IMG/VR virus record: IMGVR_UViG_2703718872_000034
Strand: one strand, 5' to 3'
Length of the DNA: 37,292 nucleotides
Source of the DNA: a virus
Taxonomy: Duplodnaviria; Heunggongvirae; Uroviricota; Caudoviricetes
The notes beneath the pieces were generated by a model that saw nothing but the letters and a program-made list of their open reading frames with translations, ran no database searches and was not told the origin of the DNA. This document shows positions 8,054 through 36,357 of the stretch, piece after piece. The stretch's first letter is position 1; each line of letters opens with the position of its first letter. The position numbers and the translations under genes are program-made.

Positions 8054-8081
8054 GGCGGTGCGGTAACACCGCCCATTTTTT
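8054..8081 (+). terminator. intrinsic-terminator-like hairpin (GGCGGTG / CACCGCC, loop CGGTAA) followed by T6
   Basis: Perfect 7-bp GC-rich inverted repeat plus TTTTTT read directly from sequence, 15 bp upstream of the GemA-like start. Confidence 0.45.
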
Positions 8082-19200: not shown

Positions 19201-19590
19201 ATGAATGAACATCACACTGTGGCAGCAACAGATGATTCAGGTCTTCAGGTCAGTGGTGACAATTCTGTCACGGTGCTGGCAGAAGTGCGTTGCAGTCGTT
19301 CGGCGTTTCGTCGTGCGGGGTTCCTGTTCACGCGTGGACGTCAGCAGGTTGAGGTCACCCCGGAGCAGCTTGCCCGACTGGAGGCGGAGCCATGCCTCAC
19401 TGTGCGAATACTACAGACGCCTGCTGATGATGCGGGGAGCGTGGCGGGTGTGGTTCATGCAGTGGCCGGTACAGATTTAGCCGAAGCCGAAGCCGAAGCC
19501 GAAGCCGAAGCCGAAGCCGAAGCCGGACAGGATGCTCCCCGGAAAAAGACCGGTAACAAAGCGAAACAGGCGAAAAAGGCCCGCGCATGA
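19201..19590 (+). CDS. head-associated protein with (Glu-Ala)7 linker and Lys-rich tail (Mu gp35 position)
   Basis: 129 aa; GGAGGG RBS; contains in-frame GCCGAA tandem repeat. Confidence 0.5.
   Translation: MNEHHTVAATDDSGLQVSGDNSVTVLAEVRCSRSAFRRAGFLFTRGRQQVEVTPEQLARLEAEPCLTVRILQTPADDAGSVAGVVHAVAGTDLAEAEAEAEAEAEAEAGQDAPRKKTGNKAKQAKKARA
19480..19521 (+). repeat. tandem hexanucleotide repeat (GCCGAA)x7, in-frame, encoding (AE)7
   Basis: Seven perfect consecutive GCCGAA units read directly, followed by degenerate GCCGGA. Confidence 0.9.
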
Positions 19591-20569: not shown

Positions 20570-20800
20570 ATGACAACCATTTTTATCAAACCCGCGCCGG
20601 GATGCCTGATTCGTGATCCCGACACAATGCGCCCGCTGGCACAGGAGGGGGAGGAAAAGCCCTTCACGCCGTTCTGGTGTCGGCGTCTTGATGACGGCGA
20701 TGTGATTGAGATTGAAAAAACGGTCGGTTCTGCGGATGCACCGGCAGAAAAACCCGCAGCGACTGTAAAACCCGTGGCATCTGACAAGGAGGCTTCCTGA
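20570..20800 (+). CDS. small protein (Mu gp38-like)
   Basis: 76 aa; position directly before sheath gene. Confidence 0.45.
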   Translation: MTTIFIKPAPGCLIRDPDTMRPLAQEGEEKPFTPFWCRRLDDGDVIEIEKTVGSADAPAEKPAATVKPVASDKEAS

Positions 20801-22215: not shown

Positions 22216-22683
22216 ACGGTTATCACCTTCGCTCTTGCTGTAAACATCCAGATTATTACGGGCGGTTCCCTTATTCTCCAGGTCGGCGAGATTCTGATCC
22301 TTCGCCAGGGCATTAACGTCACCGGGACCAAGACTGTTTTTTGTGGCAAGCGTCCCCAGACCAAGATAACCACGGGCCAGACGCTGGGCCTCCGCACCGG
22401 CATCAGCAATTTCTTTCAGGTTATTTTTCCGGGAAAAAGCATTCGCAGCGATAATGGCTTTAATAGACAGCGTAAGCTGGTTTAACTGCGCCTTATCCGG
22501 CTGAATACTGGCTTCAGCCAGAATATTCAGCAGTTCGGCCTGGAGAATATTCAGCCAGTCCTGACCAATCCAGCTGATACCTTTTTGTCCGTCACCTTCG
22601 GTAAACCAGGTGGTGGTATTACTCTGCGCCGGTGCCAGCGCAGGCATATTCGCCACGCCGGAATTATTATCAACATGAAACAT
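22211..22683 (-). pseudogene. tail fibre gene constant (N-terminal) part Sc, separated from its variable part by inversion
   Basis: Minus ORF with GAGGAGGAGAA RBS and TAATG overlap with upstream gene; fibre-like NLGLG/GDNRY-type sequence up to codon 157, then read-through into antisense sheath sequence; rejoins in frame with Sv at the gix site. Confidence 0.65.
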
Positions 22684-23243
22684 TAAATATTCTCCTCCTC
22701 GTGACTGTTTGCATACACGTAAATAAACGTCTGCCATGCAGGCTTATAACGGTTCAGAATACATTCCAGCGCACCGCCCTCATAAATACGCAGCGGCGTG
22801 AGAATATCATCCAGCACATTCATATTCCGGTAGCCGGTTTCACTGTTTATCGTGACAATACTGACCCACTGTGAATCCGGTGATGGCTGAATATCTATTT
22901 CATAACCAAACTCTGCCGCAAACCGGATATAAAATTCACGGTTCAGCGAAGGCTTCATCCGGTATTTATTCCCGGCATAACGCTGTCGTTCTGTGATGGT
23001 GGCTCCGGCCATATCACACTCGGGAAGGCCGAGATAACGCTCCCAGTCTTCCAGAAGCAGACGGGAACTGTCAGGGAAACGTTCTGCCAGCAGTTGTTTT
23101 CCCGTCCATGCAACACGTTCGGTGGAATGGCTGAGGCCAAGGCATAACGCAGCCAGTACGGATGACGGCCGCTTGTCCCAGGCCAGTCCGTCAGGCAGCA
23201 ACTGCAACAGGGCGCGCTGATGCGGAGTGAGGGTTACAGCCAT
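22683..23243 (-). CDS. baseplate/tail protein (Mu gp48-like, P2 gpI-like)
   Basis: 186 aa; position upstream of fibre gene; overlapping stop/start. Confidence 0.7.
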   Translation of the reverse strand: MAVTLTPHQRALLQLLPDGLAWDKRPSSVLAALCLGLSHSTERVAWTGKQLLAERFPDSSRLLLEDWERYLGLPECDMAGATITERQRYAGNKYRMKPSLNREFYIRFAAEFGYEIDIQPSPDSQWVSIVTINSETGYRNMNVLDDILTPLRIYEGGALECILNRYKPAWQTFIYVYANSHEEENI

Positions 23244-24319
23244 GTGATTTCCCCCACTGTCAGCAGCTCACTGTCCCCCGCCTGAACCGACGTCAGCGGG
23301 CTGCGCACTTCAAAATCCTCCAGATTTTTCACCCCCGCCACGGCACGCCAGAAAGACGACGCCAGAACCAGACCGCCGGGCCGGGATTCGTTGTATAACA
23401 GGTCAGTCAGTGCCTGTTTTACGGCCGCCTGATTCTCCGGTGTTTTCGGGATGATCCTGATACTGAAGGGCACTGGCTTATTGGTCAGTTTAAACACGGT
23501 CACCGTCGGCCCCAGCGGCTGACCGACAGGCTGACCGGTCGCCGGATCATCATGACTGCGGATATAATCCGCCACACGTTTCACATCACCTTCACCGGGA
23601 AAAATGTCCGGGTTGTTGTCCTGAACGAACGTCACCCCCACGCTGCCCGCCTGCGGCCATTCCGGGCGGCACCATGCCCGCGTCACCCCCGGCACTTCAC
23701 GCGCCCAGCGTTCAAAATCGTACTGCGTGCCGCCGGACGGCGGATTCTGCACCCGGAAAACCAGGCGGGAAAGCAGCTCCGGCACCGTTTCCACATCCGC
23801 ACCACCGGTGATCCCTGTTCCGGTCACCGTGGCCGTCTGGTTGATCCCCGCCTGCGGAGTGACAAACGTCAGTTTCGTCCCTGCCGGGGCATTTCCCGCA
23901 CGACCGGCACTTTCGGCCTCCACACTGACATTCAGCGTACCGGCTTTACCGGTCAGTGAGGAGGTGATGCGGTAAACCACGCCGTCACTGCGCTGGAGAA
24001 GCACACCTTCCGTGATCCCCGCATCCGTGGTCAGCATCAGCTGAACCGGCCCGTCACCCCGTGAGGCGGGTTTACGCATGACACCCCAGAAAGCGCAGTG
24101 CTTCAGCAACTCGGCTTCATCGGCTTCTGTCGGGATGATCTGACGTGCAATCCAGGCCAGATGTTCATGCTCCTGTGCAGACAATCCTGCCTGAGCATAC
24201 GCAATGGCATTCAGGGTGGTTTCATTCACGCCCGGCTGCGAACCGGGAAGACGCTGGCTGATATCCTGCTGTGTCTGCGTGATTAATTGTGCCAGCGGTA
24301 AAGGCTGATAAGGCATCAC
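23234..24319 (-). CDS. baseplate J-like protein (Mu gp47-like)
   Basis: 361 aa; position and size. Confidence 0.75.
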   Translation of the reverse strand: MMPYQPLPLAQLITQTQQDISQRLPGSQPGVNETTLNAIAYAQAGLSAQEHEHLAWIARQIIPTEADEAELLKHCAFWGVMRKPASRGDGPVQLMLTTDAGITEGVLLQRSDGVVYRITSSLTGKAGTLNVSVEAESAGRAGNAPAGTKLTFVTPQAGINQTATVTGTGITGGADVETVPELLSRLVFRVQNPPSGGTQYDFERWAREVPGVTRAWCRPEWPQAGSVGVTFVQDNNPDIFPGEGDVKRVADYIRSHDDPATGQPVGQPLGPTVTVFKLTNKPVPFSIRIIPKTPENQAAVKQALTDLLYNESRPGGLVLASSFWRAVAGVKNLEDFEVRSPLTSVQAGDSELLTVGEITWL

Positions 24320-24753
24320 TCCCCCTTAAGATCAGCATAAAAAATCATGGGTCTTACCGAACCATCAGGCAGGGTTATGCGCACCGAAAGCGCCAGCCGC
24401 GCGTGTCCCACACGTTCTGCATGACAGACCACGGATGACGCCACGCCATCCTGACTGAGCCAGCCCAGCGCCTCATCCGCGTAGGCACGGGCACGGCTTA
24501 TCACGGAGACCAGCGTTTTTTCCCGGCTGAGAAGCCACAGACGGGAGCCAATGGGGCGCGGGCGAAAACTGTCTCCCCACCATCCCCGGCGGTCACGTGT
24601 GCCATCAGGGATTTCATCCGATGCCAGTGCCCGGCGGTCAGTAAACAGTGAAATCAGAACCGCTGTCAGCAGGCTGTCATCTGTCAGCAGGTCTGCACCG
24701 TTCAGTTGCAGCGAACCGCATCCCTGATCCCACACAATTGCAATATCAGCCAT
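24316..24753 (-). CDS. baseplate wedge protein (Mu gp46-like)
   Basis: Start placed at internal ATG 24753 with AGGAG RBS, 145 aa; longer ORF to 24876 lacks RBS. Confidence 0.65.
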   Translation of the reverse strand: MADIAIVWDQGCGSLQLNGADLLTDDSLLTAVLISLFTDRRALASDEIPDGTRDRRGWWGDSFRPRPIGSRLWLLSREKTLVSVISRARAYADEALGWLSQDGVASSVVCHAERVGHARLALSVRITLPDGSVRPMIFYADLKGE

Positions 24754-25360
24754 TCTCCGGCGCTCCTGTCTTACTGCCTTCACCGTTATCATGATGTACA
24801 TGGCCGGAATAGGTGATTCCCGCAATAACAGCCTCGGACATCGTGAACGTACCCTGTGATTTTCCTGTGCCGTCAATGGTCAGATTACCTTTGATATGCA
24901 GGTTTTTATCCACCGTGACATTGCCTGTAAAGGTGGCTTCCGGTGTATCCACCTGAACACCTTCATCGGCGTAAATTTCCAGCGTCTTACAGGTCACAAT
25001 GATCCGACCGTTCTTTGTCAGACGTATACGGTGCCCCTCATGGTGATACACGCCGGTATCTCCGGCAGTGAGTCCGGTCGGGCGACTGCGGCGGTCTTCC
25101 ACCACAAGCACCACGGTCTGATCACGCTGCCCGCCCAGACAGGCAAAAAAGGTTTCCGCACCCGGCAGGGGAACACTGATCTGCCCGTACTGCTGGGGAC
25201 GCTCCACATCATCAAAGGTTTCGCCGTCCATGCCGGTGAGCTGCACATTCTGCATTTTCAGTTCGTCATGTGTGCCGGTCAGAACGCCCCGGCCAAACAG
25301 CAGGCGAATGCCGCGCGTTACCGGGGCAATCAGGCGGCTGAACACTTCATCATTCATCAA
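24746..25360 (-). CDS. baseplate spike/assembly protein (Mu gp45-like, gpV-like)
   Basis: 204 aa; position between P-like and wedge genes. Confidence 0.7.
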   Translation of the reverse strand: MMNDEVFSRLIAPVTRGIRLLFGRGVLTGTHDELKMQNVQLTGMDGETFDDVERPQQYGQISVPLPGAETFFACLGGQRDQTVVLVVEDRRSRPTGLTAGDTGVYHHEGHRIRLTKNGRIIVTCKTLEIYADEGVQVDTPEATFTGNVTVDKNLHIKGNLTIDGTGKSQGTFTMSEAVIAGITYSGHVHHDNGEGSKTGAPENG

Positions 25361-26474
25361 AGCTAATCCCCTGTTTTTTCATCTGCTGGCGAATAAAGGC
25401 ATCAACATCATCACCGGAACCACCACGGCCCTTACTGTCCGGCTCTGCCGGAACGATAAAGCCGTCACGCGGTGCCAGTACCAGCCGGGTGACTTCCCCG
25501 TTCTGCTCATCCAGTAAAAACTCCACCTGGCAGACCAGCAGTTCAGTCTGTTCGATACCGAAACGCAGGGCTGAAACACCGGTCAGCAGATTGACATCCC
25601 ATAACCGGCCATCATCCCGGAACCAGCCACGCACGGTGGCGGAAAACCGTTCTGAACGGGCAACCGCACGGCGCATCTCCCGCAGGGCGCGCTGCCGTGC
25701 ACCGGTGGAGTCTGTCTGCTGATCGGCGAGGATGATTTTCGGCCGGTAGCGACCGATCTGCTCATCACTGATGATGCCCACTGGGGCCGCCAGCCGGGCG
25801 GCAGATTCGCTGTCTCCCCGTTTGCCACCACCGCGTCCATGCCCCCGGACACGGTATTCGCTGTATCGTCCTCGCCAGTCCGTGTTGTAATCGGCATCAA
25901 GCAGGTTTTCCCCCAGCACCAGTCTGTCCGTCTGCTGATTTCCTGCCTGGGTGAACACCAGATCACCGTCAGCATTACTGGTCACCAGCACCCCACGATG
26001 CCGGGCCGCACGGGTCAGCGCATCCGCCACGGTTTCTGAGTTTTCCAGGGTAAAAGAGCTGAAGGGGCGTGCAGCCGTGTCGTCGTTAACCTGCCAGCGC
26101 ACGGCTATTCCGAAGGGCGCACATAAATCTGCGGCAATCTGTGCCAGCGTCCGGTTTCGCCACTGGCTGCCGGGATGGATGGCGGCACAGTCCACCAGGT
26201 CGCCGGTTTTATCCCGACCGTTAATGCTGATCTGATGACGGGTTGCACTGATCCGCTGACTGACCTGATCCAGCCAGCCACTGATGACAGTCTGCCCGTT
26301 AATTCTGAGCGTCAGGGACTGACCGGTCCGCAGGGCTGAGGGGATGCGCTCACCGGGCAGCATCAGCCCCAGTTCAAACGACCCGGCCAGATGCTCCAGA
26401 GAACGACGGACGCTTACCGTCAGCCAGCCGGAAAAAATACTGCCGCCAATATACAGCTCAATCCTGCTGCTCAC
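25350..26474 (-). CDS. tail protein P-like (Mu gp44, P2 gpD-like)
   Basis: 374 aa; position after N-like gene. Confidence 0.75.
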   Translation of the reverse strand: MSSRIELYIGGSIFSGWLTVSVRRSLEHLAGSFELGLMLPGERIPSALRTGQSLTLRINGQTVISGWLDQVSQRISATRHQISINGRDKTGDLVDCAAIHPGSQWRNRTLAQIAADLCAPFGIAVRWQVNDDTAARPFSSFTLENSETVADALTRAARHRGVLVTSNADGDLVFTQAGNQQTDRLVLGENLLDADYNTDWRGRYSEYRVRGHGRGGGKRGDSESAARLAAPVGIISDEQIGRYRPKIILADQQTDSTGARQRALREMRRAVARSERFSATVRGWFRDDGRLWDVNLLTGVSALRFGIEQTELLVCQVEFLLDEQNGEVTRLVLAPRDGFIVPAEPDSKGRGGSGDDVDAFIRQQMKKQGISFDE

Positions 26475-27816
26475 TAATCACCTCCACACTGCGACCACCA
26501 GGAACAAAAACCGGATCAGGGATGTTGTTCCTGCGGACAAAATACTGCCAGCGACGGCTGTTGCCGGTGGCACGGTACAGCGTGACCAGTGCCGGTTCGG
26601 TGGTTCTCACCATGACCAGAGAAGCACCGGGAAGATGCACGCTACGCGTTGTTAAATCCTCTGTCAGCGCAAGCCTGGCATCACGTAATGCAAGGGCGGT
26701 TCCGGTATGGCCCTGTGCGGACAAATCCAGCACCTGTTGTTCCAGGGCATCACTCAAATCCCGGTTGATCCGCTGCACATCGGCAGAACTTTCCAGCCAG
26801 GCCAGTCCGCCCTCCCGGTCTGTATCCTGAACGTGCGTCGCACTCTGCCGGACGACCTGATCCAGCAGTTTTCCTACCGTCTGCGCCTGTGACACCAGGG
26901 TTGCGCTCTGCATGACTGTCCGCAGCAGACGGATATTTTTCTGTGCCGCAGGCGTCAGACCAATCAGGATCTGCGGATCATCCTGCCCGCTGAGGGTATA
27001 ACGCAGGGAAGAAAGTGTGCGGTACAGTTGCGGCATTGCCTGCTCTGTCATGCTGTCACGATTTGTGGTCAGGCTGCCGGACGGCGTTGCGGCCTTCCCG
27101 GTCAGTGACAGGGAAGGATCGCCGGGCAGTCCCGTCAGCACCGCAAACATTCCGGCCAGAGATTCAGCCATGCGACGGGGCGAATTAATCAGGGCGGCAG
27201 CATTCCCTTTCAGGGCAGTGAAACTGGCCGTAAAGGCACTGATATCCTGCACAATCCCCATTCCCGAAACGGCATTCTCCAGCGCATCAATTTTATCGCT
27301 GATGGTGTCGGTCATGGCCTGCACATCATGCAGGCCGTCTGAAATCACTGTCCAGCCGTCTGAAAGCGTGTTAAACAACTGATTCATTGCTGAACCGCTT
27401 TTCTGCTCCAGAACGGCAGCCGTGTCTTCAGCCACCGCCGGTGCGGTATCGTCACTGGCGGGGATCACGTTGATCGTGAACTCAACCGTTCCCTGTTCGC
27501 TGGCGTTATAACGGCTTTCAAAGCTGTTTATCAGCACGTTTAAGGTGCCATAATCCGGGTGCATCAGTTCACCGGCACCGGGTGCCCGCAGCGCATCCCG
27601 CAGGCGGCTTCGCTGCGTCTGAAGATCATCGCCGATCACAAGAGCCGTGAATGTAAACTCCGGGAGTTTTGGCCCCAAATCATCCGCGCCGCCGCTTTCC
27701 CGCAGAGGATATTCACGGCGCACAATGTTACGTCCGCCCCGTTCCCGTTGTTCCTGATAAATCAGAAACGGCACACCACGAAAGGAGCCACGCCCCGGCG
27801 TGTCAGTAGAGGCCAT
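26458..27816 (-). CDS. DNA circularisation protein N-like (Mu gp43)
   Basis: 452 aa; position directly after tape measure. Confidence 0.75.
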   Translation of the reverse strand: MASTDTPGRGSFRGVPFLIYQEQRERGGRNIVRREYPLRESGGADDLGPKLPEFTFTALVIGDDLQTQRSRLRDALRAPGAGELMHPDYGTLNVLINSFESRYNASEQGTVEFTINVIPASDDTAPAVAEDTAAVLEQKSGSAMNQLFNTLSDGWTVISDGLHDVQAMTDTISDKIDALENAVSGMGIVQDISAFTASFTALKGNAAALINSPRRMAESLAGMFAVLTGLPGDPSLSLTGKAATPSGSLTTNRDSMTEQAMPQLYRTLSSLRYTLSGQDDPQILIGLTPAAQKNIRLLRTVMQSATLVSQAQTVGKLLDQVVRQSATHVQDTDREGGLAWLESSADVQRINRDLSDALEQQVLDLSAQGHTGTALALRDARLALTEDLTTRSVHLPGASLVMVRTTEPALVTLYRATGNSRRWQYFVRRNNIPDPVFVPGGRSVEVISEQQD

Positions 27817-29857
27817 AGTTCCCTCCGTTCCAGACGTTCACATCAAGGCCATGCTGTGCGGTATCATCCACATCAATACTGCGTGCCCGCCAGCCTTCAG
27901 GGGCCACAAGCTCCACCCGTGCGGCGGTTTTCGCGGTGGCCTGTCCGCCATTTTCATCACTGCCCCGTAATTTCTGCCAGGCTTCGGTCAGCCATCCCCC
28001 CAGATAATCACCGAGATAACTGCCCACCGTGGAGCCAATGGCAACCCCGACCGGACCGGCGGCAGCCCCCAGCGCGCCACCGGCGATACTTCCGGCAAGG
28101 GAACCCATGGCACCGGCTTTATCAGCTGCACTGGCGCTGTTGTCCAGCAGTACAGGAGCCGCCATGGCACCGGCCCACAGGGCACCACCGCCCAGCCGAC
28201 CGGCACCACGGAACAACCCGGCAAAACGCCCCAGCCCCATGCGGTTTCCGGCAGCCGAAAGCAGACCACCTGCACGGCTCATCATACGACCGAAGAAGCC
28301 CTGTTTACCGGCGCTCTCTGCCAGTTGTTCGCCTGCGGTCACAACGGTCGGGACACCCCGCCCACGTCCGGGGCCGCGTTTTTTACGGCCGCGCACGGTT
28401 CTGCCGTCACCGCTGACCACCACATCCCCGCCACCTGATGCCAGACCACCCGCAGGCCAGTTGGTGACCAGTACGGGCTGAACGGCAGCAGGATTTACCC
28501 CGGTAAGAAAGTTCATAAAACGCTGGCCGCGTCCTGGCTGCGTGCCCGGAACGGTGGTCTGCGGTTTACGAAAAGGCGAGGTCAGCACAGCGGCCGTGGA
28601 TAACCCGTACCCCAACAATGCCGCCCCCGGTCGCAGTGCCCCAAGACCTATGGCGCGGACAGCCTTCAGCGCACGGGTGGCGAGATACATATACAGGAGA
28701 TATTTCGCGGCGGTCTGTGCGCCCTGAGCAATGCGATCCAGCGCATCGCCATAACCGGCGTCACGCAATGCCTGAAGCGTTTCCCTGACTTTCTGAATGG
28801 CCCGGTAAAAACCCGTCGCTGCGTCTCTGGCATACTCAAACCCCTGATTCAGGGCTGAGGCTGTTTGTGTGGCCAGCTTGTCCTGTAAGCCGCTTTTCTG
28901 TGCCGCATCGGCATAATCCAGGAAGCCTTTCAGGCTCTTTTTCAGGCTGTCAAATGGCCCTTTTGCCATTACTTCACGGGCAAATCCGTCCCAGACGTCG
29001 CCCATCATGGATGTCATCCCTGTCCATGAGTTCATGGCGTTTTTCTGGGCACCTTTTGCCTGTTCGGCCATCACCTGAAATAACAGCCGAATGCTGTCCG
29101 ATCCCAGTTTTCCTTTCTCGCCTTTCTCACGGATGATCTTCTGGTTTACACCCAGTTTATCGGCCAGCAACTGGTAAACGTTTATCCCGTATCCGGTCAG
29201 AATATTGGCGTCTGCGGCCTGGATACTCTGGCGGGCAAACATCTGTTTGAGTTGCAGGGACGCACCCTGTGCATCTGACAGTGACCAGCCGTGATAGCCG
29301 CCCTGATCCTGAAGCATGGTAATAAAGCGGCGGGCTTCCCTGTCACTCATACCGAACCCGCGACTGGAGGCGTATTCCTGCATAACCCCCGCCAGCCCCC
29401 AGGTGGTTTCCTTTGCGTTCTGTACCGCCCAGGCTTTCACTGCTTCCGTTTTTGCCGTATCGCCATGATTAATGGCATTGAGACGCAGAATATAGTTCTC
29501 CATCTCTGCGGCCGGGCGGATAAAGGCTTTATTAAAACCGTAGACCGCAGCCCCTCCTGCCAGCATCCCGTAAAGGTTGCTGAGACGTCCCAGTGTGCCG
29601 GTAATACTGCCCTGAAGACGGTCAAAATCCGACGTTACCGTGCGGATACTGCCACGGACACCGGCAAGCGTACGCTGCATACGGGAGCCGACAAGCTCTG
29701 TCTCCTGACCGGCACGGCGGGCTGCATTTCCAATACCACCCAGCCCCGTCCTGCCGACGCGGGAGAACGCTCCCAGCTCCTGTGACCACTGGCGGGATTT
29801 GGCGGAAACATTGCCGAGTAAATCGACAATCAGGGAGGCTTTCAGGTTTTTTGCCAT
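27803..29857 (-). CDS. tail tape measure protein
   Basis: 684 aa, Ala/Gly-rich, helical N-terminal half, located between chaperone and N-like genes. Confidence 0.85.
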   Translation of the reverse strand: MAKNLKASLIVDLLGNVSAKSRQWSQELGAFSRVGRTGLGGIGNAARRAGQETELVGSRMQRTLAGVRGSIRTVTSDFDRLQGSITGTLGRLSNLYGMLAGGAAVYGFNKAFIRPAAEMENYILRLNAINHGDTAKTEAVKAWAVQNAKETTWGLAGVMQEYASSRGFGMSDREARRFITMLQDQGGYHGWSLSDAQGASLQLKQMFARQSIQAADANILTGYGINVYQLLADKLGVNQKIIREKGEKGKLGSDSIRLLFQVMAEQAKGAQKNAMNSWTGMTSMMGDVWDGFAREVMAKGPFDSLKKSLKGFLDYADAAQKSGLQDKLATQTASALNQGFEYARDAATGFYRAIQKVRETLQALRDAGYGDALDRIAQGAQTAAKYLLYMYLATRALKAVRAIGLGALRPGAALLGYGLSTAAVLTSPFRKPQTTVPGTQPGRGQRFMNFLTGVNPAAVQPVLVTNWPAGGLASGGGDVVVSGDGRTVRGRKKRGPGRGRGVPTVVTAGEQLAESAGKQGFFGRMMSRAGGLLSAAGNRMGLGRFAGLFRGAGRLGGGALWAGAMAAPVLLDNSASAADKAGAMGSLAGSIAGGALGAAAGPVGVAIGSTVGSYLGDYLGGWLTEAWQKLRGSDENGGQATAKTAARVELVAPEGWRARSIDVDDTAQHGLDVNVWNGGNYGLY

Positions 29858-29984
29858 GGATTACTGCTTCGTTCTGAGAATTTTTTCCGTTTGTTGGCAG
29901 TGCCGGTAAAGTTGCGATAAGGGGAGGTTAAGTGCCCATTCCGGGCCGCTTCTGGTCACCATCCCCAGCACTATTGCCGCTTCT

Positions 29985-30461
29985 TCAATCTGCGCCCGAC
30001 ACTGCGCCTGCTCGCCCCCGATCAGCCGCCAGCTTTCCGGCAAGCGCTGTATCCAGCAGGCTGACCGCTGCCATCAGACGGGAGAGATCGCGCTCGCTTA
30101 ACTGTCCAATCTGGCGTTGTGACAACGGCCCCTGAATGTCACCGACAGCGGCAATCTGGCGACGCAGCAGCGCAATACCGCGCAGGGCCGGTGATGCCAC
30201 CAGAACCGGGCCATTTCGGGTTTCCATAAGACGTTCAGCATCGGTTTCCGCATCAATGCTGTCTTTCGCCGTCAGTTCACGGAAGGTGACGCGGTATTCA
30301 CGGGATTCCCCGAACGGCAGACCGTCGAGCAGATCCACATAGCCTTTCGCCAGTTGTTCAGCCAGACCGGCGGTGCGTGGATCGCCGTCCTCAAGTGCAT
30401 CACGGATAGCCTCAATAACGGCTTCGTCAGAAACCGCTGTTTTTTTCTTACGTGTGGTCAT
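29985..30461 (-). CDS. tail assembly chaperone (Mu gp41-like)
   Basis: 158 aa acidic protein between tube and tape measure; overlapping alternative-frame ORF 29861..30043 at its 3' end. Confidence 0.6.
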   Translation of the reverse strand: MTTRKKKTAVSDEAVIEAIRDALEDGDPRTAGLAEQLAKGYVDLLDGLPFGESREYRVTFRELTAKDSIDAETDAERLMETRNGPVLVASPALRGIALLRRQIAAVGDIQGPLSQRQIGQLSERDLSRLMAAVSLLDTALAGKLAADRGRAGAVSGAD

Positions 30462-30475
30462 TTTATTTTTCCTGA

Positions 30476-30841
30476 TTACTGGACACGGGTACTGGTGGCA
30501 CTGGCGAACTTCGCGGAGATCTCCCCGCCACCGTCAAGTGAGGCCGGTTCACTGCTCCAGGCCTTCGTCATCATGTGGACTTCGCCGGTGTCCGCCACAA
30601 ACTCGATAGTGACCGCAGTCCAGGTGTTGATTTCATCAGCGGCCGGTGAACCGTCTCCGCCTGCCGGAAATTTGCAGTCCAGCGTCGCTTCACGTGGTTT
30701 CTCGCGATAGCCATAGACTTTTGCGCCTTTCACCACTTCACGCTCAAAGCCGGACGGGGAGAACGTGGCCCCCTCAAGGGTGGAGTATTCCTGACCGTTC
30801 ACACGGATAGTGGCCGTGCCCTGATACTGTTTTCCGCTCAT
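30476..30841 (-). CDS. tail tube protein (Mu gp40-like)
   Basis: 121 aa; RBS GAGGTAAG before ATG; follows sheath C-terminal fragment. Confidence 0.75.
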   Translation of the reverse strand: MSGKQYQGTATIRVNGQEYSTLEGATFSPSGFEREVVKGAKVYGYREKPREATLDCKFPAGGDGSPAADEINTWTAVTIEFVADTGEVHMMTKAWSSEPASLDGGGEISAKFASATSTRVQ

Positions 30842-30849
30842 GTCTTACC

Positions 30850-30977
30850 TCACAAAATGAAACGGATCTGCGCTGCCATGAAGCGGAACTGGTTAACCAG
30901 ATCCGGTGTACACATCACATCCAGACGGTTACGATCAGTTGTGTTACGCTCCACAAGCAGATTGTTTTTAAATACCT
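30850..30977 (-). pseudogene. tail sheath gene, C-terminal fragment (about 42 codons plus stop)
   Basis: Minus-strand frame ...VFKNNLLVERNTTDRNRLDVMCTPDLVNQFRFMAAQIRFIL-stop ending 9 nt before tube start; in frame with sheath N-terminal fragment across shared AGGTA. Confidence 0.6.
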
Positions 30978-30990
30978 CGGTTTACGGGAA
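30965..30990. other. gix-like recombination site, hybrid (degenerate left half, consensus-like right half GGTTTACGGGAA, centre TC)
   Basis: Right half nearly identical to the reverse complement of the left half of the site next to gin; resembles the Mu gix consensus core AAACC-NN-GGTTT. Confidence 0.6.
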
Positions 30991-31359
30991 ACGGTAAACA
31001 GGGCTGCAAATGCCCTGCCATCGAATGGTACAGCCGTAGCGGCAAACAAGCTGTCTGCGGCACGTAAAATTAACGGTGTTGCGTTCGATGGCACAAAGGA
31101 CATCACTATTACATCCGGGATGACCCAGGCTACAGCAGACGGCAGATATGTTCGTAATGTGCAACTTGGTGCTCAGAGCCGCCACTCTCCTGCGGGTAAT
31201 GAAGTCACCTGGGATTATAAAACGCCAGCAGGTTGTATGCTTTCCGGTATTCATGTACAGGATACCGGCTCCCGGTCTGCGGATAATATCGGTGGGGTCT
31301 ATTATCGCCCGGTTCAGATTTATATTAATAATGCCTGGAGAACGGTGAGTTCAGTGTAA
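30978..31359 (+). CDS. tail fibre variable C-terminal part Sv (no own start; fuses to Sc)
   Basis: Frame open from the gix site: GLRETVNRAANALPSNGTAVAANKLSAARKINGVAFDG...GVYYRPVQIYINNAWRTV; typical fibre repeat and C-terminus. Confidence 0.7.
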
Positions 31360-31366
31360 ACCACAG

Positions 31367-31387
31367 AAAAGGGTGCTGAATGCACCC
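31367..31387 (-). terminator. hairpin (GGGTGC / GCACCC) with A/T-rich flanks between convergent Sv and tfa
   Basis: 6-bp perfect inverted repeat; a U-tract follows the stem on the minus-strand transcript. Confidence 0.45.
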
Positions 31388-31393
31388 TCTGAA

Positions 31394-31966
31394 TTATTCC
31401 GGTTTTTCCGGCCAGGGAATCGCCTGGTAATGCCCCTCACTGGCAATATCATTAAAGTGCATTTCTTTAAGCTGTCGGATATACGCCATCCAGCGCGTCA
31501 GCTTTAATTTATTTTCATCGCTAATCATGTCCAGTTTTAATTCTGTTTTCCAGTCATCCACGGTTCCGTTGGCCTCCTGGAGCAGCGATGAGCGGCGATT
31601 TTCAGCAACCGTCTTCCAGTTTACCGGCACCTTTGATATCAGGCCATCAGAAAACTGCCAGTTACCGTCAATATTCACACCTTCCGGCAGTTCGTCCACT
31701 TCAACAACAGTAAAACCTGCCGGATATAAAGCAGAGACATCTTCAGCAACAGAGCAGATAATGCCCGTTACAGGCGAAATACAGAGTTTGTATTTCTTTG
31801 TGAAAAGCGGGATAGATTCATAAAAATCCCTTCCGTCCTCACTCTGGAAATACTGAACATCCTCACCATAGGGTTTGTCTTTCGGGTAATATCGTTTGAC
31901 ATTAATCAGTTGCATAAACATCACCATGTAAATCAATGATAAAAACAGGAATAATACTATCGCCAT
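31394..31966 (-). CDS. tail fibre assembly protein (Mu U / P2 G family)
   Basis: C-terminal ...HYQAIPWPEKPE motif typical of tail fibre assembly proteins; start at 31966 or internal ATG 31915. Confidence 0.7.
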   Translation of the reverse strand: MAIVLFLFLSLIYMVMFMQLINVKRYYPKDKPYGEDVQYFQSEDGRDFYESIPLFTKKYKLCISPVTGIICSVAEDVSALYPAGFTVVEVDELPEGVNIDGNWQFSDGLISKVPVNWKTVAENRRSSLLQEANGTVDDWKTELKLDMISDENKLKLTRWMAYIRQLKEMHFNDIASEGHYQAIPWPEKPE

Positions 31967-32036
31967 ATACAGGCAATGCTTGTCTGAAATAACGCATATT
32001 TCAGATGCTGGCTGCTGTGTGCTATGCCCCCGTTAA

Positions 32037-32404
32037 TTAAATACTTGCAGCGGATACCCAATGCCCATTAATACAATATTGTATCTGTCTGTAATAAACA
32101 CGCTCATCACCACCACGCATTTCCCAGTCTCCGTTAGTCTTAAAACCGGTAATCACATTTCCTGATGACAGGGAGTAATTATATTCCAGTCCGCCGCTTA
32201 ATGCCTGCGCTCCCAGTCTTACCCCTGTAACATAACGCTGATTGGCCGTTGATTCCGGCATTCCTGACGTAATGTTTATATCCTGCGTGCCGTCAAAGGC
32301 GACACCATTGATTCTGCGGGCATTTGCCAGCCTGCTTGCTGCAACAGCCGTACCGTTTGATGGCAGGGCATTCGCGGCCCTGTTTACAGTATCCCGTAAA
32401 CCGA
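32037..32404 (-). CDS. alternative tail fibre variable C-terminal part Sv' (no own start)
   Basis: Minus-strand frame open from gix site: GLRDTVNRAANALPSNGTAVAASRLANARRINGVAFDG...RVYYRQIQYCINGHWV; N-terminal 20 aa nearly identical to Sv. Confidence 0.7.
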
Positions 32405-32416
32405 GGTTTCAGGGAT
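32391..32416. other. gix-like recombination site (ATCCCGTAAACC-GA-GGTTTCAGGGAT), near-palindromic
   Basis: 12-2-12 inverted repeat read directly; resembles Mu gix/hix family; 55 bp upstream of gin. Confidence 0.7.
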
Positions 32417-32470: not shown

Positions 32471-33031
32471 ATGCTGATTGGCTATATACGCGTATCAACA
32501 AATGACCAGAACACAGGTTTACAAAGAAATGCGCTGGAATGTGCAGGATGTGAGCAGATTTTTGAAGATAAAATGAGCGGAAAAACAACGCAGCGGCCGG
32601 GACTGAAGCGGGCACTGAAGAAACTAAAACCCGGTGACACGCTGATGGTATGGAAACTGGACAGGCTGGGGCGCAGTATGCGCCACCTTGTTGCGCTGAC
32701 AGATGAATTACAGCAACAGGGGATAAATTTTCGTAGTCTTACTGACAACATTGATACGTCAACCCCTATGGGGCGCTTCTTTTTTCACATAATGGGTGCG
32801 CTGGCAGAAATGGAGCGTGAACTGATTGTCGAACGGACACGGGCTGGTCTTGCAGCTGCCCGTGAAAGGGGACGAACCGGCGGCAGACCCCGTCGTCTCA
32901 CGCAGGAACAATACGAGCAGGTCGGGCGTTTACTGGCCGGGGGTGTCAGCCGAAGACAGGTGGCACTTATTTTTGATATCGGCCTTTCAACCCTTTATCG
33001 TTATTATCCTGCGAGCGTTTCGGAAAAATAA
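32471..33031 (+). CDS. gin: serine DNA invertase Gin (Gin/Hin/Pin/Cin family)
   Basis: 186 aa; N-terminus MLIGYIRVSTNDQNTGLQ with catalytic Ser in YIRVST, C-terminal HTH; near identity by recall to Mu Gin; RBS AAGGAAGG. Confidence 0.92.
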   Translation: MLIGYIRVSTNDQNTGLQRNALECAGCEQIFEDKMSGKTTQRPGLKRALKKLKPGDTLMVWKLDRLGRSMRHLVALTDELQQQGINFRSLTDNIDTSTPMGRFFFHIMGALAEMERELIVERTRAGLAAARERGRTGGRPRRLTQEQYEQVGRLLAGGVSRRQVALIFDIGLSTLYRYYPASVSEK

Positions 33032-33130: not shown

Positions 33131-35173
33131 ATGACGTCCAAATGGGTTCAACTATCATCAATGCCCGGAAACTTTACCGTTAAAGTTTCCGGTGGTACAG
33201 CGGCATTTCTTGAGGCTCCCTTTCCTCCGGTCGAAACAAAAGGAGGAATGACATTTGCTGACTGTCTCATCAGTTTTAATACACGGGATTGCCTGTGGGT
33301 AAGGCCAGTATCCGGTAATCCGAGTGTGGAAATTACCGGAGCAGGTATCGGTGCGGTCATTCCGTTAAGTGCTGATGTTGCCGGTACTGCTGAACCGTCA
33401 GACTGGGATAATGCTGAAACACATACCCGTCCGTCAGGAAATGAAACTGCTTCCAGCTCCCCTTCCTGGTATTACGTGGTGGTTCTTGCTGGTCAGTCAA
33501 ACGGTATGGCTTACGGTGAAGGTCTGCCACTGCCGGAGACATATGATCGCCCCGAACCGCGTATTATGCAGTTAGCCCGTCGCAGTACAGTCACGCCGGG
33601 AGGTAAAGCCTGTCAGTATAACGACATCATTCTGGCCGACCACTGTCTGCATGATGTGCAGGATATGAGTGGAAAAAATCACCCGAAAGCGGATGTGGCT
33701 AAAGGGCAATATGGCACCGTGGGTCAGGGGCTTCACATTGCCAAAAAACTGCTGCCGTTTATTCCGGCAGATGCGGGGATTCTGCTGGTTCCCTGCTGCC
33801 GTGGTGGTTCTGCATTCACGGCGGGTGCTGACGGCACGTACAGTGACAGCGCGGGTGCTTCAGAGAACTCAGCCCGCTGGGGTGTGGATAAGCCGTTGTA
33901 TAAGGATTTAATCAGCCGGACAAAAGCGGCGCTGGCGAAGAACCCGAAAAACCGCCTGCTTGCCGTGGTGTGGATGCAGGGTGAGTTTGATATTGATGCG
34001 AAGCCGACGGAGCATTCCGCGCTGTTTCTGGCGATGGTGGAAAAATTCCGCACAGACCTGGCTGAAAAAGCAGAGCAGTGTATTGGTGGTCGAACTGAAA
34101 CTGTGCCGTGGATTTGTGGCGATACCACGTATTTCTGGAAAAAGAAAAATGAACCGGCATATCAGGCAATCTATGGCGGCTACAAAAATAAAACAGATAA
34201 AAACATTCATTTCGTCCCATTAATGACAGATGAAAATGGCGCGAATGTACCCACCAACAATCCGGCAGAGGACCCGGATATTGAATCCATTGGTTATTAC
34301 GGCTCAACGTGGCGTAACAATGCTGCCACCTGGACATCTGCGGACCGGGCCAGTCATTTCAGTGCCTGGGCGCGCCGTGGGATTGTTTCCGACCGTCTGG
34401 CCACGGCTGTTCTGACTCACGCAGGGCGAACCACAGTAAAAGCCGATGTTCCATCTTCTGAAACTGATGCGCCAACGCCGTCACCTTCAGAAGCTGAAAC
34501 AGTAACCACAACAACACTGCTGTCTTACCGTGCCAGTGAGTCTGAAGGGAAGCTGACCGAACAGGGCTGGAGTGCAGGTGGAGGTAAAGCGGAAATTGTT
34601 GCCGATGAAGGTGCAACTGGTGGAACCGCGATGAAGCTGAGCAAGGAGACGGGTAAAGGATCATGGCATCTGGAGCATGATGCCGGTACTGGCGCTGAAC
34701 TGCTGAAAAATGGCGGCTTAATCAGTTGCCGCTTTAAGGCATCCAGTGAACTGGTGGCAAATCAGTATGTCATTGCACTTTACTGGCCGGTTTCCTCTCT
34801 GCCGCAGGGTGTCACCCTGACAGGGGAAGCAGGGAATAATCTGCTGGCAGCGTTCTACATCCAGACAGACGCAAAAGACCTGAATGTGATGTACCACAAT
34901 GCAAAAGTGGCGACAAATAACCTGAAGCTGGGAACCTTTGGCGCATTTGATAATGAGTGGCATACGCTGGCCTTCCGCTTTGCCGGGAATAACAGCCTTC
35001 AGGTGACGCCGGTTATTGATGGTCAGGACAGTACACCGTTCACGCTGACGCAGTCACCGGTCAGTGCATTTGCGGCGGATAAACTGCATGTGACAGACAT
35101 TACCAAAAATGCGACTTACCCGGTGCTGATTGACAGCATTGTGGTGGAAGTGAAAAAAGCGGTAACAGAATAA
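33131..35173 (+). CDS. SGNH/SASA-type carbohydrate esterase, prophage NanS-like sialate O-acetylesterase candidate
   Basis: 680 aa; VVLAGQSNGMAYGEG motif (GQSN catalytic block of the SASA family); N-terminal non-catalytic region, central esterase region, C-terminal Thr/Ser-rich linker and about 220-aa possible carbohydrate-binding domain. Confidence 0.65.
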   Translation: MTSKWVQLSSMPGNFTVKVSGGTAAFLEAPFPPVETKGGMTFADCLISFNTRDCLWVRPVSGNPSVEITGAGIGAVIPLSADVAGTAEPSDWDNAETHTRPSGNETASSSPSWYYVVVLAGQSNGMAYGEGLPLPETYDRPEPRIMQLARRSTVTPGGKACQYNDIILADHCLHDVQDMSGKNHPKADVAKGQYGTVGQGLHIAKKLLPFIPADAGILLVPCCRGGSAFTAGADGTYSDSAGASENSARWGVDKPLYKDLISRTKAALAKNPKNRLLAVVWMQGEFDIDAKPTEHSALFLAMVEKFRTDLAEKAEQCIGGRTETVPWICGDTTYFWKKKNEPAYQAIYGGYKNKTDKNIHFVPLMTDENGANVPTNNPAEDPDIESIGYYGSTWRNNAATWTSADRASHFSAWARRGIVSDRLATAVLTHAGRTTVKADVPSSETDAPTPSPSEAETVTTTTLLSYRASESEGKLTEQGWSAGGGKAEIVADEGATGGTAMKLSKETGKGSWHLEHDAGTGAELLKNGGLISCRFKASSELVANQYVIALYWPVSSLPQGVTLTGEAGNNLLAAFYIQTDAKDLNVMYHNAKVATNNLKLGTFGAFDNEWHTLAFRFAGNNSLQVTPVIDGQDSTPFTLTQSPVSAFAADKLHVTDITKNATYPVLIDSIVVEVKKAVTE

Positions 35174-35320: not shown

Positions 35321-35503
35321 ATGACATTCGTTCATACAATGCTGCTTTATTTCTGCGCTGTGGTCAGTGCGTTATATCTGGTGAGCGGCGGTTATAAGGT
35401 CATCAGAAATTATATTCGCCGTAAAATTGATGATGCGGCAGCTGAAAAACTCAGTAAAACAGCACAGGCACCGTCATCCCCAAACGACCCGACCCCGCTC
35501 TGA
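35321..35503 (+). CDS. small putative membrane protein (60 aa)
   Basis: ORF with AAGGTAAGG-like RBS; single hydrophobic helix LLYFCAVVSALYLVSGG. Confidence 0.3.
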   Translation: MTFVHTMLLYFCAVVSALYLVSGGYKVIRNYIRRKIDDAAAEKLSKTAQAPSSPNDPTPL

Positions 35504-35538
35504 TAACGGGGCAATATACCTGCAAAAGGAGAATATTC

Positions 35539-35784
35539 ATGCCAGAGATTAAAGGCACGGTTACTGAAGAGCTTGTCAAACAGGCACTTTATTCTGAAGA
35601 AGTGAACCGCGTGCTGAAGGCGCAGGTTCGCAAGGATTTTGAGGCACAAATTGACGCATATGTTGATGAAGTGCTGGCCCGAATGGTTGGTCGTTCTCCG
35701 GCTGAAAACAGCACGGAAAATGAGCCTCAACCCGTAGAGCAACCAGAGCCGGTCCAGCCCGGAACTGACGGTACTATGATGTAA
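35539..35784 (+). CDS. small acidic hypothetical protein (81 aa)
   Basis: Strong RBS AAAGGAGAA 7 nt before ATG; helical N-terminus and Pro/Glu-rich tail. Confidence 0.4.
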   Translation: MPEIKGTVTEELVKQALYSEEVNRVLKAQVRKDFEAQIDAYVDEVLARMVGRSPAENSTENEPQPVEQPEPVQPGTDGTMM

Positions 35785-35822
35785 CAATACCGACCGGCAG
35801 GTTTCCCTGCCGGGTGAATTTG

Positions 35823-35993
35823 TTAATGCACGTTTTGTGTATTTTCCCTCCGGGGAGAACAGGCAGGACATATCAGCATCCTGAAACAGGAAGCATTTTT
35901 TGGTTTGTATGTCTTGCCATTTTGAGATCGAGAACGGCGATAGATGAGCTGTAAGGGAGTCTTACAGGCAGGGCAAACAGGCTCTTTATCCAT
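35823..35993 (-). CDS. small Cys-rich zinc-finger-like protein (56 aa), divergent from com
   Basis: Minus-strand ORF with AAAAGGAG RBS before ATG at 35993; CPAC...C...CPAC arrangement. Confidence 0.35.
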   Translation of the reverse strand: MDKEPVCPACKTPLQLIYRRSRSQNGKTYKPKNASCFRMLICPACSPRRENTQNVH

Positions 35994-36179
35994 GATAAAG
36001 ATCTCCTTTTTATGCATCTCTGCTTTACAGGAGACCGGGGAATATCATAGGATACGCCACGAGCTCGAAGTAAAGCATTGATGCAAGTTTTTACAGATTG
36101 ACCCAGCATAGTTCCAGCTATGCTGGGTTTCCCTTTTATGTAGTATCCTGTTGATTTGAAACATACTACATATACGCGC

Positions 36180-36357
36180 GATCCTACCTTCACTGGATAA
36201 AAAGTCAATAAAATGATCATTTTATGATCGTTTTCACTCGCTAACTCTTCGTTTTCTTTAAGTAAATAATCACCTCCCTGAATCATTGTTGATGACTTTT
36301 CAATCTATTTGTTGTATCAATTAAACAAATCGAATCGATCGTTTTTGTCGATCGATT
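36180..36357. promoter_or_regulatory. com/mom upstream regulatory region with five GATC (Dam) sites and a perfect 9-bp inverted repeat AATCGATCG-N7-CGATCGATT
   Basis: GATC at 36180, 36215, 36226, 36337, 36350; palindrome at 36333..36357 about 45 bp upstream of com start; Mu mom is known to be controlled by Dam-methylated GATC sites upstream of its promoter. Confidence 0.5.

What the first reader, a model, noticed from the sequence alone, without database searches (positions are those of the whole stretch)
30965..32416. Compact G-like invertible segment with two fibre tips but only one assembly chaperone
Two inverted gix-like sites flank about 1.4 kb containing Sv (+), a single tail fibre assembly gene (-) and Sv' (-). 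Sv and Sv' share an almost identical first 20 codons (GLR[E/D]TVNRAANALPSNGTAVAA) and then diverge completely, the classic host-range switch layout. Unlike Mu, which has a chaperone gene for each orientation, only the Sv' orientation would place a chaperone downstream of the fibre gene. The site at 30965..30990 has a consensus-like right half but a degenerate left half, consistent with it being a recombinant hybrid site.
Basis: partly seen in the sequence, partly recalled or inferred. Interest (0 to 1): 0.6.

Follow-up and report, generated by a model that had tools for sequence, protein, structure and literature searches.

The report
Tail-fibre switch stranded by off-target inversion
The small invertible tail-fibre segment is real and belongs to a known family of Mu-like E. 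coli prophages, but in this copy its invertase has apparently also flipped 8.8 kb between the switch site and a look-alike site in the tail sheath gene, splitting both the sheath and fibre genes.

Summary
The described features are present. A 1,424-bp segment (30979..32402) lies between two inverted gix-like sites. It carries Sv (+), one tail fibre assembly gene (-) and Sv' (-), next to a Gin-like serine invertase (32471..33031). No second chaperone gene exists, and the same layout recurs in two diverged relatives examined, including an O157 Sp18-type prophage. Complete E. coli genomes show both orientations: Sc-Sv in 184, Sc-Sv' in 7.

No fibre constant part (Sc) lies upstream of the left site. 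Sc sits 8.8 kb away on the minus strand (22683..22153), and the sheath gene is split (20800..22154 plus 30976..30850). Compared with a near-identical prophage (E. coli 2012EL-2448), window 22155..30976 is exactly inverted at 100% identity. The breakpoints fall on the central GA/TC of gixL and on a GAGGT core inside the sheath gene.

The "degenerate left half" at 30965..30990 is therefore sheath DNA, a true hybrid site. None of 5,426 complete genomes has this arrangement, but the chimeric sheath ORF occurs on 107 public contigs. Four of those, read across the segment, have it flipped relative to the window. The best reading is off-target (quasi-site) recombination by the invertase, which leaves both fibre tips unexpressed.

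The parts
20800..22154 (+). 5' part of the tail sheath gene (about codons 1-452). The open frame runs on into antisense Sc to 22485, giving a chimeric 561-aa ORF.
   Evidence: Pfam Phage_sheath_1, and Phage_sheath_1C cut off at profile position 65/104. 100% identical to the sheath of L001 up to 22157. The chimeric ORF equals EIH46399.1 and is on 107 contigs.
22141..22166 (.). Junction J1: hybrid site GTCGAGAATATG GA GGTTATCGATAA. It combines the poor half of the sheath quasi-site with the Sc-side half of gixL. Central GA at 22153-22154.
   Evidence: Break in collinearity with L001 at 22153-22157, with a 5-nt overlap GAGGT. Site scores (17/26 to Mu gix; halves 10/12 and 5/12).
22155..30976 (.). 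8,822-bp segment inverted relative to all complete E. coli genomes. It carries Sc, the baseplate genes, DNA circulation protein, tape measure, tail assembly protein, tail tube and the sheath 3' end, all now on the minus strand.
   Evidence: Window 22153..30978 equals L001 32303..23478 reversed, at 100% over 8,826 nt. Gene content.
22153..22683 (-). Sc, the constant N-terminal 177 codons of the tail fibre, ending ...DKGTFIDNL at the crossover.
   Evidence: Matches Mu S residues 1-191 (PDB 5YVQ_A, domain i-E = 1.1e-45). Joined to Sv it restores the 303-aa fibre of L001.
30850..30976 (-). 3' end of the tail sheath gene (...VFKNNLLVERNTTDRNRLDVMCTPDLVNQFRFMAAQIRFIL*), detached from its 5' part.
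   Evidence: Read directly from the sequence. Joining it to 20800..22154 restores the 493-aa sheath of L001.
30965..30990 (.). Junction J2: hybrid site TTTTTAAATACC TC GGTTTACGGGAA. It combines the better half of the sheath quasi-site with the Sv-side half of gixL. Central TC at 30977-30978.
   Evidence: 21/26 to Mu gix; halves 8/12 and 11/12.
30979..32402 (.). Small invertible segment, 1,424 bp between the two central dinucleotides.
   Evidence: Found in the opposite orientation in L006 (normal background) and in L002, L003, L005 and L012 (large-inversion background), with endpoints at these sites.
30979..31359 (+). Sv, alternative fibre tip 1 (126 codons). An orphan in this arrangement.
   Evidence: Kept open in diverged alleles: 79% nt identity, 36 synonymous against 23-24 non-synonymous codon differences, no stops.
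31368..31390 (.). G+C-rich hairpin between the convergent ends of Sv and tfa (terminator-like).
31394..31915 (-). The single tail fibre assembly (Tfa) gene, 173 aa, co-oriented with Sv'.
   Evidence: Pfam Caudo_TAP E = 9e-18. Matches Mu U over residues 3-147 (PDB 5YVQ_B, E = 4.2e-16). RefSeq annotates the same coordinates in L001.
32037..32402 (-). Sv', alternative fibre tip 2 (121 codons). By eye it is the tip more like the C-terminal domain of Mu S.
   Evidence: Fused to Sc in 7 complete genomes, for example L006.
32391..32416 (.). gixR, the intact right crossover site: ATCCCGTAAACC GA GGTTTCAGGGAT. Central GA at 32403-32404.
   Evidence: Identical in the O157 relative L016.
32471..33031 (+). 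Gin-family serine DNA invertase, 186 aa, with Ser9 in RVSTNDQ.
   Evidence: Pfam Resolvase 1.4e-51 plus HTH_7 1.7e-14. Matches the Mu Gin structure 3UJ3 at E = 2.3e-91 over residues 1-182.

Best explanation
The window is an Sp18-type Mu-like E. coli prophage. Its normal tail-fibre switch works like the Mu G segment. A Gin-family serine invertase cuts the 2-bp centre of two inverted 26-bp sites and flips 1,424 bp. This exchanges the last 126 or 121 codons of the fibre gene, Sv or Sv'. Only Sv' has a Tfa chaperone gene behind it.

In this copy the invertase has, in addition, recombined the left site (gixL, at the end of the fibre's constant part Sc) with a look-alike 'quasi-site' inside the tail sheath gene. 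That quasi-site shares the central GA, the adjacent GGT and one recognisable half-site with gix. The result is a conservative 8,822-bp inversion (22155..30976).

Consequences of the inversion:
- It splits the sheath gene and separates Sc from both tips.
- It creates two hybrid sites. J2 (30965..30990) still has a good half on each side, so the small segment can go on flipping against gixR. J1 (22141..22166) keeps only one good half, so reversion should be as rare as the forward event.
- In this state the prophage should make neither sheath nor complete fibres.

Shown: the inversion, its exact endpoints, the restoration of both genes on re-inversion, the family membership of invertase and sites, and the occurrence of all states in public genomes. 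Inferred: that the invertase catalysed the large inversion, and the phenotype.
For: 1. Collinearity. The window equals the prophage of E. coli 2012EL-2448 (2 SNPs, an IS1, a repeat-number difference and two 1-nt indels) except that 22153..30978 is reversed, at 100% identity over 8,826 nt. Each junction has a 5-nt overlap GAGGT/ACCTC and no base is gained or lost.
2. Re-inverting in silico restores a 493-aa sheath and a 303-aa fibre identical to the annotated proteins of L001.
3. The breakpoint in gixL lies at the central dinucleotide. The parental gixL, TTATCGATAACC TC GGTTTACGGGAA, matches Mu gix at 23/26. The quasi-site has the same central TC/GA plus one 8/12 half.
4. The invertase matches Mu Gin at E = 2.3e-91 and lies 1.5 kb from gixL.
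5. The arrangement is real and independent of this window. The chimeric 561-aa sheath ORF is on 107 contigs from NCBI and Logan assemblies. An example, L012, sits in the same hofC insertion site as normal copies.
6. On that background the small segment is found in both orientations: the window against L002, L003, L005 and L012.
7. In the O157 Sp18-type sheath allele the quasi-site core is GACAC, not GAGGT, although invertase, gixL and gixR are the same. None of 5,426 complete genomes shows the inversion.
8. Recombination of Cin with quasi-sites that share the central dinucleotide is established knowledge (Iida & Hiestand-Nauer 1986 and 1987, cited as refs 50-51 in PMC4134206).
Against: - The quasi-site is only a modest match: 15/26 to Mu gix. 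On a crude half-site score it ranks about 11th of 4,350 TC-centred 26-mers in the prophage, and several better-scoring candidates were not used.
- No experiment or read-level data link the event to the invertase.
- The Fis enhancer was not tested.
- All SNPs among inverted and normal copies are singletons. It therefore cannot be said whether the inversion arose once or several times, or whether it reverts.
Confidence: 0.82

Rival explanations
1. One reading: an intact, compact host-range switch operating in place, whose left site is merely degenerate.
For: Both sites, both tips, the tfa gene and the invertase are present and intact. The same module works as a switch in relatives.
Against: No Sc and no start codon lie upstream of Sv in this window. 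Sc is at 22683..22153 on the other strand, and the sheath gene is split.
Confidence: 0.03
2. The large inversion is an assembly artefact or a chimeric join.
For: None of 5,426 complete E. coli genomes has it. The junction 33-mer is absent from the viral, species-representative and metagenome collections.
Against: The junction-spanning ORF is on 107 contigs from independent NCBI and Logan assemblies, up to 543 kb long. A 5-bp overlap is unlikely to mislead an assembler (inference). Both junctions are reciprocal and base-perfect.
Confidence: 0.03
3. A real inversion, but produced by illegitimate, microhomology-mediated recombination or by Mu transposition, not by the invertase.
For: Only 5 bp of identity is shared. 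The quasi-site is not the best-scoring candidate in the prophage.
Against: One endpoint falls exactly on the 2-bp centre of a bona fide crossover site and the exchange is conservative. Mu-type replicative transposition would leave duplicated Mu ends, and none are present. In the one diverged sheath allele examined, which lacks the GGT core, no inversion is recorded.
Confidence: 0.07
4. The large inversion is a recurrent and reversible third state of a three-site system. It would act as a programmed on/off switch for tail production rather than an accident.
For: The state is frequent: 107 contigs against at least 1,000 with the exact normal sheath allele. It occurs in otherwise near-identical prophages at the same insertion site as normal copies. 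Both small-segment orientations occur on it.
Against: J1 has one very poor half-site (5/12). No complete genome shows the inversion. Contigs run cleanly through the junctions, which argues against mixed populations. The quasi-site is not conserved in the Sp18 allele. A single clonal origin explains all the data equally well.
Confidence: 0.07

Closest known systems
Phage Mu G segment with Gin invertase (S-U / U'-S')
   Same: - The invertase matches Gin at E = 2.3e-91 over 182 residues.
- The 26-bp sites match Mu gix at 19-23/26 with the same central dinucleotide.
- Sc matches Mu S residues 1-191. The tip matches the C-terminal domain of Mu S (433-503), and Tfa matches Mu U.
- The invertase gene lies immediately to the right of the segment.
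   Different: - The segment is 1.4 kb, against about 3.06 kb in Mu.
- The tips are 121-126 codons, far shorter than in Mu (about 335 codons for S, from the coordinates), and are paralogues of each other (51% identity).
- Only one Tfa gene is present, against U and U' in Mu.
- In this window the left site is a hybrid and Sc is displaced by 8.8 kb.
Sp18-type Mu-like prophages of STEC (E. coli O157:H7 Sakai Sp18 and relatives)
   Same: - Same gene order and same single-Tfa invertible module.
- The invertase protein is identical and gixL/gixR are identical.
[quoted passage not shown]
- PMC10132054 reports well-conserved Sp18-like Mu-like phages at variable sites in STEC.
   Different: - The Sv allele is only 79% identical.
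- The Sp18-type sheath allele lacks the GAGGT core of the quasi-site.
- No Sp18-type complete genome shows the 8.8-kb inversion.
Cin recombination at quasi-cix (secondary crossover) sites of phage P1
   Same: - A bona fide site recombines with a degenerate site that shares the central dinucleotide.
- The products are reciprocal hybrid sites and an inversion.
- Basis: established knowledge, Iida & Hiestand-Nauer 1986 and 1987, refs 50-51 of PMC4134206.
   Different: - As I recall, those events were recovered in laboratory plasmid assays.
- Here the event lies inside a natural prophage, spans 8.8 kb, cuts two structural genes and is carried by many sequenced isolates.
[quoted passage not shown]
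   Same: - 26-bp crossover sites such as TTATCGAATACCTC GGTTTACAGGAA, and in-frame exchange of fibre 3' ends (PMC4134206).
- Inversion creating new chimeric ORFs (PMC12529663).
   Different: - In EC958 each orientation has its own downstream minor fibre gene, in a mirror-image layout.
- In e14 the chimeric product is reported to be functional. Here the chimeras are sense-antisense fusions and are probably inert.

Membership tests
Gin/Cin/Pin/Hin (Din) DNA inversion systems | Small serine recombinase with an N-terminal catalytic domain (active-site Ser near residue 9-10) and a C-terminal HTH | tested here: met
   Pfam Resolvase 1.4e-51 plus HTH_7 1.7e-14. Matches Gin structure 3UJ3 at E = 2.3e-91, with Ser9 present (the crystallised Gin has Ala at this position).
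Gin/Cin/Pin/Hin (Din) DNA inversion systems | Two 26-bp crossover sites, each made of two 12-bp half-sites around a 2-bp core, in inverted orientation around the segment, with identical central dinucleotides | tested here: met
   J2 matches Mu gix at 21/26 and gixR at 19/26. The central dinucleotide is TC on the fibre-sense strand of each.
Gin/Cin/Pin/Hin (Din) DNA inversion systems | The segment is found in both orientations in nature, with endpoints at the sites | tested here: met
   Sc-Sv in 184 complete genomes and Sc-Sv' in 7. L006 is flipped exactly at the sites. Many public contigs end in 'partial' Sc products of 173-176 aa, that is, at gixL.
Gin/Cin/Pin/Hin (Din) DNA inversion systems | Fis-dependent recombinational enhancer in cis, in the 5' part of the invertase gene for Gin, Cin and Hin | tested here: inconclusive
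   The first ~110 nt of the gene are about 80% identical to Mu gin. Fis sites and their function cannot be judged with these tools.
Mu G-type host-range switch | Inversion exchanges, in frame, the 3' end of a fibre gene whose constant 5' part lies just outside the segment | tested here: not met
   Met in relatives L001 and L006. In this window Sc is 8.8 kb away on the other strand and Sv has no start codon.
Mu G-type host-range switch | Each orientation brings its own fibre assembly chaperone behind the fibre gene (U and U') | tested here: not met
   There is one Caudo_TAP gene, co-oriented with Sv'. The + strand ORFs in the segment hit no family. The layout is the same in L001, L006, L015 and L016.
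Mu-like (Sp18-type) transposable prophage | MuA/MuB-type transposition genes, Mor, Mu-type portal, gpF and gpT, Mu-type tail and baseplate genes, com/mom at the right end | tested here: met
   RefSeq annotation of the near-identical L001. Pfam families on called genes. Mom 2.5e-77.
Quasi-site (secondary crossover site) recombination by a DNA invertase | One partner is a bona fide site cut at its centre. The other shares the central dinucleotide and partial half-site similarity. The exchange is conservative and reciprocal and leaves two hybrid sites. | tested here: met
   The similarity of the quasi-site is modest (15/26; rank about 11 of 4,350).
Quasi-site (secondary crossover site) recombination by a DNA invertase | The event depends on the invertase | not testable with these tools
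   Needs a gin mutant lysogen or an in vitro reaction.

The most novel reading that the evidence does not exclude
The 8.8-kb inversion is not a dead-end accident. It is a recurrent, reversible third state of a three-site inversion system, by which this Mu-like prophage, or its host, toggles between a tail-competent and a tail-less state while the fibre-tip segment keeps flipping. A second reading, not excluded either, is that the Sv tip folds without any co-expressed Tfa. That would make it a natural chaperone-independent variant of the Mu S tip domain.
Probability: 0.1. Interest if true: 0.75.

Novelty: new variant of a known kind. Interest (0 to 1): 0.45.

Why it matters
The switch itself is ordinary: a member of the Gin family in Sp18-type Mu-like prophages.

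Two things are worth a note.

First, this is a natural, population-level example of a DNA invertase recombining with a quasi-site inside an essential structural gene. The event is base-perfect and breaks two tail genes at once. It is carried by about a hundred sequenced isolates, and the normal small switch apparently keeps working on the hybrid site. It shows how 'domesticated' or defective prophages can arise in one step without any loss of sequence. It also shows how genome annotation can be misled, for example by a 561-aa 'sheath protein' and orphan fibre fragments.

Second, the family-wide single-Tfa layout offers a simple test of how specific Tfa chaperones are. It combines paralogous tips with an Sv allele that evolves as a mosaic while Tfa stays constant.

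Tried and rejected
- Junction search. The 33-nt J1 junction was searched in viral contigs, genome contigs and metagenome contigs, with no match. The arrangement was found only through the exact chimeric protein.
- SNP analysis of the inverted segment in 6 inverted and 8 normal copies, to count independent origins. All 12 variable sites are singletons, so it was uninformative.
- Promoter scan for a tfa promoter inside the segment, which would allow Tfa expression in the Sv orientation. No sigma-70-like site lies upstream of tfa, and the total number of hits was no higher than in shuffles. This does not cover Mu C-dependent late promoters.
- Consensus scoring of all TC-centred 26-mers, to ask whether the sheath quasi-site is the best off-target in the prophage. 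It is not: it ranks about 11th. Site choice is therefore not explained by my crude score.
- Second tfa gene on the + strand: none found.
- Literature searches for a described large inversion in Sp18-type prophages found nothing relevant.
- Considered and rejected: Mu transposition as the cause (no duplicated ends) and homologous recombination (only 5 bp shared).
Full report
**1. What is at the coordinates**

The longest inverted repeat of the window is 30974-31122 / 32259-32407: 149 nt, 77% complementary, 1,136 nt apart. The region contains these features:
- Sv, 30979..31359 on the + strand.
- A G+C-rich hairpin, 31368-31390.
- One Caudo_TAP tail fibre assembly gene on the minus strand, 31394..31915, 173 aa, Pfam E = 9e-18.
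- Sv' on the minus strand, 32402..32037.
- Just outside, a 186-aa Resolvase+HTH_7 protein, 32471..33031.

That last protein matches the crystallised Mu Gin over residues 1-182 at E = 2.3e-91.

The two crossover sites align with Mu gix (TTATCCAAAACC TC GGTTTACAGGAA, read from the Mu genome):
- 30965..30990 is TTTTTAAATACC TC GGTTTACGGGAA, 21/26.
- 32391..32416 on the minus strand is ATCCCTGAAACC TC GGTTTACGGGAT, 19/26.

A gix pattern with up to 3 mismatches hits 30965..30990 and nothing in 100 shuffles. No second chaperone gene exists. The Sv stop and the tfa stop are 34 nt apart, and the + strand ORFs inside the segment hit no Pfam family.

**2. Corrections to the observation**

Sv and Sv' do not diverge completely. 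They are 51% identical over their full length (E = 4e-39). Both end in the same small domain as the C-terminus of the Mu fibre S: residues 227-302 of the reconstructed fibre match Mu S 433-503. By eye, Sv' is the closer of the two to Mu S. Tfa matches Mu U over residues 3-147, E = 4e-16. The module is thus a miniature Mu G segment with paralogous tips, in which only the Sv'-Tfa pair corresponds to Mu S-U.

**3.

Nothing upstream of the left site encodes a fibre. The genes to the left are tail tube, tail assembly protein, tape measure, DNA circulation protein and baseplate genes. All are on the minus strand and point away from the segment.
- The fibre's constant part, Sc, is at 22683..22153 on the minus strand. 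It ends '...DKGTFIDNL' and then runs into nonsense.
- The sheath ORF 20800..22485 is sheath-like only up to about 22154. Its Phage_sheath_1C match is cut at profile position 65/104.
- The missing sheath C-terminus (...VFKNNLLVERN...QIRFIL*) is read on the minus strand at 30976..30850.

**4. The large inversion**

Compared with the prophage of E. coli 2012EL-2448 (L001), the window is collinear and almost identical: 2 SNPs, an IS1 in L001, a hexamer-repeat difference and two 1-nt indels. The exception is that 22153..30978 equals L001 32303..23478 reversed, at 100% over 8,826 nt. Each end has a 5-nt overlap GAGGT/ACCTC. Re-inverting 22155..30976 in silico restores a 493-aa sheath and a 303-aa Sc-Sv fibre identical to the annotated proteins.

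The parental sites were:
- gixL = TTATCGATAACC TC GGTTTACGGGAA, 23/26 to Mu gix.
- A sheath quasi-site = TTTTTAAATACC TC CATATTCTCGAC, 15/26, with halves 8/12 and 5/12.

The exchange is at, or next to, the central dinucleotide of gixL, and it is reciprocal and conservative. These are the signatures of serine-invertase strand exchange and of the 'quasi-site' recombination described for Cin (Iida & Hiestand-Nauer 1986 and 1987, cited in PMC4134206). The guess that the site is a recombinant hybrid was right, but for a much larger event than imagined.

**5. Is it real, and how common is it?**

None of 5,426 complete E. coli genomes spans either junction. Every hit breaks at 22153-22157 or at 30974-30977. 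The J1 33-mer is absent from the viral, species-representative and metagenome collections.

However, the chimeric 561-aa sheath ORF is an existing database protein (EIH46399.1, E. coli 99.0741). It is seen on 107 contigs, against at least 1,000 for the exact normal allele. Contigs from NCBI and Logan assemblies carry the same arrangement. One of them, L012, has the prophage in hofC, the same insertion site as normal-arrangement copies. An artefact is therefore very unlikely.

Variable sites among 6 inverted and 8 normal copies are all singletons, so one origin cannot be told from several.

**6. The small switch is active, even on the broken background**

- Among complete genomes, Sc-Sv is contiguous in 184 and Sc-Sv' in 7.
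- L006, 100% identical to the window over the invertible segment, is flipped exactly at the sites.
- Many public contigs end in 'partial' Sc products of 173-176 aa, that is, at gixL. Mixed orientations in culture would produce this (inference).
- On the large-inversion background, L002, L003, L005 and L012 have the small segment in the orientation opposite to the window.

So either J2 x gixR still recombines, which is plausible because J2 keeps a good half-site on each side, or the large inversion happened at least twice. In every such state neither tip is fused to Sc.

**7. Why this allele?**

The O157 Sp18-type relative has an identical invertase protein and identical gixL and gixR. Its sheath gene reads CTG GA CACCTTTAAAAA at the corresponding place and so lacks the GGT next to the centre. 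This fits site-specific choice, but it is a single comparison. On a crude consensus score the quasi-site ranks only about 11th of 4,350 TC-centred 26-mers.

**8. The single chaperone**

The layout (fibre, convergent tfa, Sv' fragment, invertase) is the same in all five prophages examined, including two diverged relatives, one of them O157 Sp18-type. PMC2669165 already noted that Sp18 has an invertible host-specificity region with genes distinct from Mu, and that Sp18 DNA is packaged.

Sv is not a decaying remnant. Between this prophage and Sp18-type copies it is only 79% identical, while Sc, tfa, Sv' (in L016) and the invertase are 97-99% identical. Even so, it keeps its length and frame, with 36 synonymous against 23-24 non-synonymous codon differences. 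Sv is also the orientation found in most assembled lysogens.

I infer that Sv-tipped fibres are functional. How they fold is open. Three possibilities remain:
- They use the single Tfa, which needs transcription not seen in a sigma-70 scan.
- They use a Tfa from another prophage.
- They need none.

**9. Verdict**

The small segment is a new member, or at most a compact variant, of a known kind and is already noted in the literature. The added finding is a natural off-target inversion by a Gin-family invertase that strands the switch and breaks the sheath gene. It is a new variant of a known phenomenon and of moderate interest.

Noticed in passing
window 19479-19525 (inside gene 19201..19590): A (GCCGAA)n array encoding an (Ala-Glu)n run in the HI1506-related/FluMu_N head-region protein. 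Its copy number differs among otherwise identical prophages: L002 has 1 unit fewer, L001 and L004 2 fewer, L003 3 fewer.
   Followed up: partly
window 33131..35173 (+): A 680-aa protein with a sialate O-acetylesterase (SASA) domain and DUF6645. It sits between the invertase and com/mom, where Mu has no gene. It is annotated as sialate O-acetylesterase in one relative. It may be a surface-glycan-modifying or virion-associated enzyme.
   Followed up: no
window 30979..31359 versus L015/L016 3401..3781: The Sv allele is a mosaic hot spot. It is 79% nt identical between this prophage and Sp18-type copies, while the flanking Sc, tfa and invertase (and Sv' in L016) are 97-99% identical. In L015, Sv' is partly replaced or deleted.
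   Followed up: partly
window about 8054-8066; L001 8638..9335: The otherwise identical prophage of strain 2012EL-2448 carries an IS1A insertion here that the window lacks. Other copies have IS1 elsewhere: L009 and L014 show deletions or insertions in the tape measure region.
   Followed up: no
window 11157..11738 (SNP at 11319): The gp27-family gene is intact in the window but is annotated as a pseudogene with an internal stop in strain 2012EL-2448. The C/T difference at 11319 is probably the cause (inference).
   Followed up: no
L013 (GCA_020145145.1) versus L008-L012, L014: The same prophage is inserted in hofC in most genomes, but next to the gabP-csiD region in L013. This shows recent transposition or infection by this phage.
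   Followed up: no
window 35410..36286 (-): Two adjacent minus-strand ORFs (153 and 137 aa) correspond to a gene that RefSeq marks as frameshifted in L001. The window differs from L001 by a 1-nt indel at 35896.
   Followed up: no
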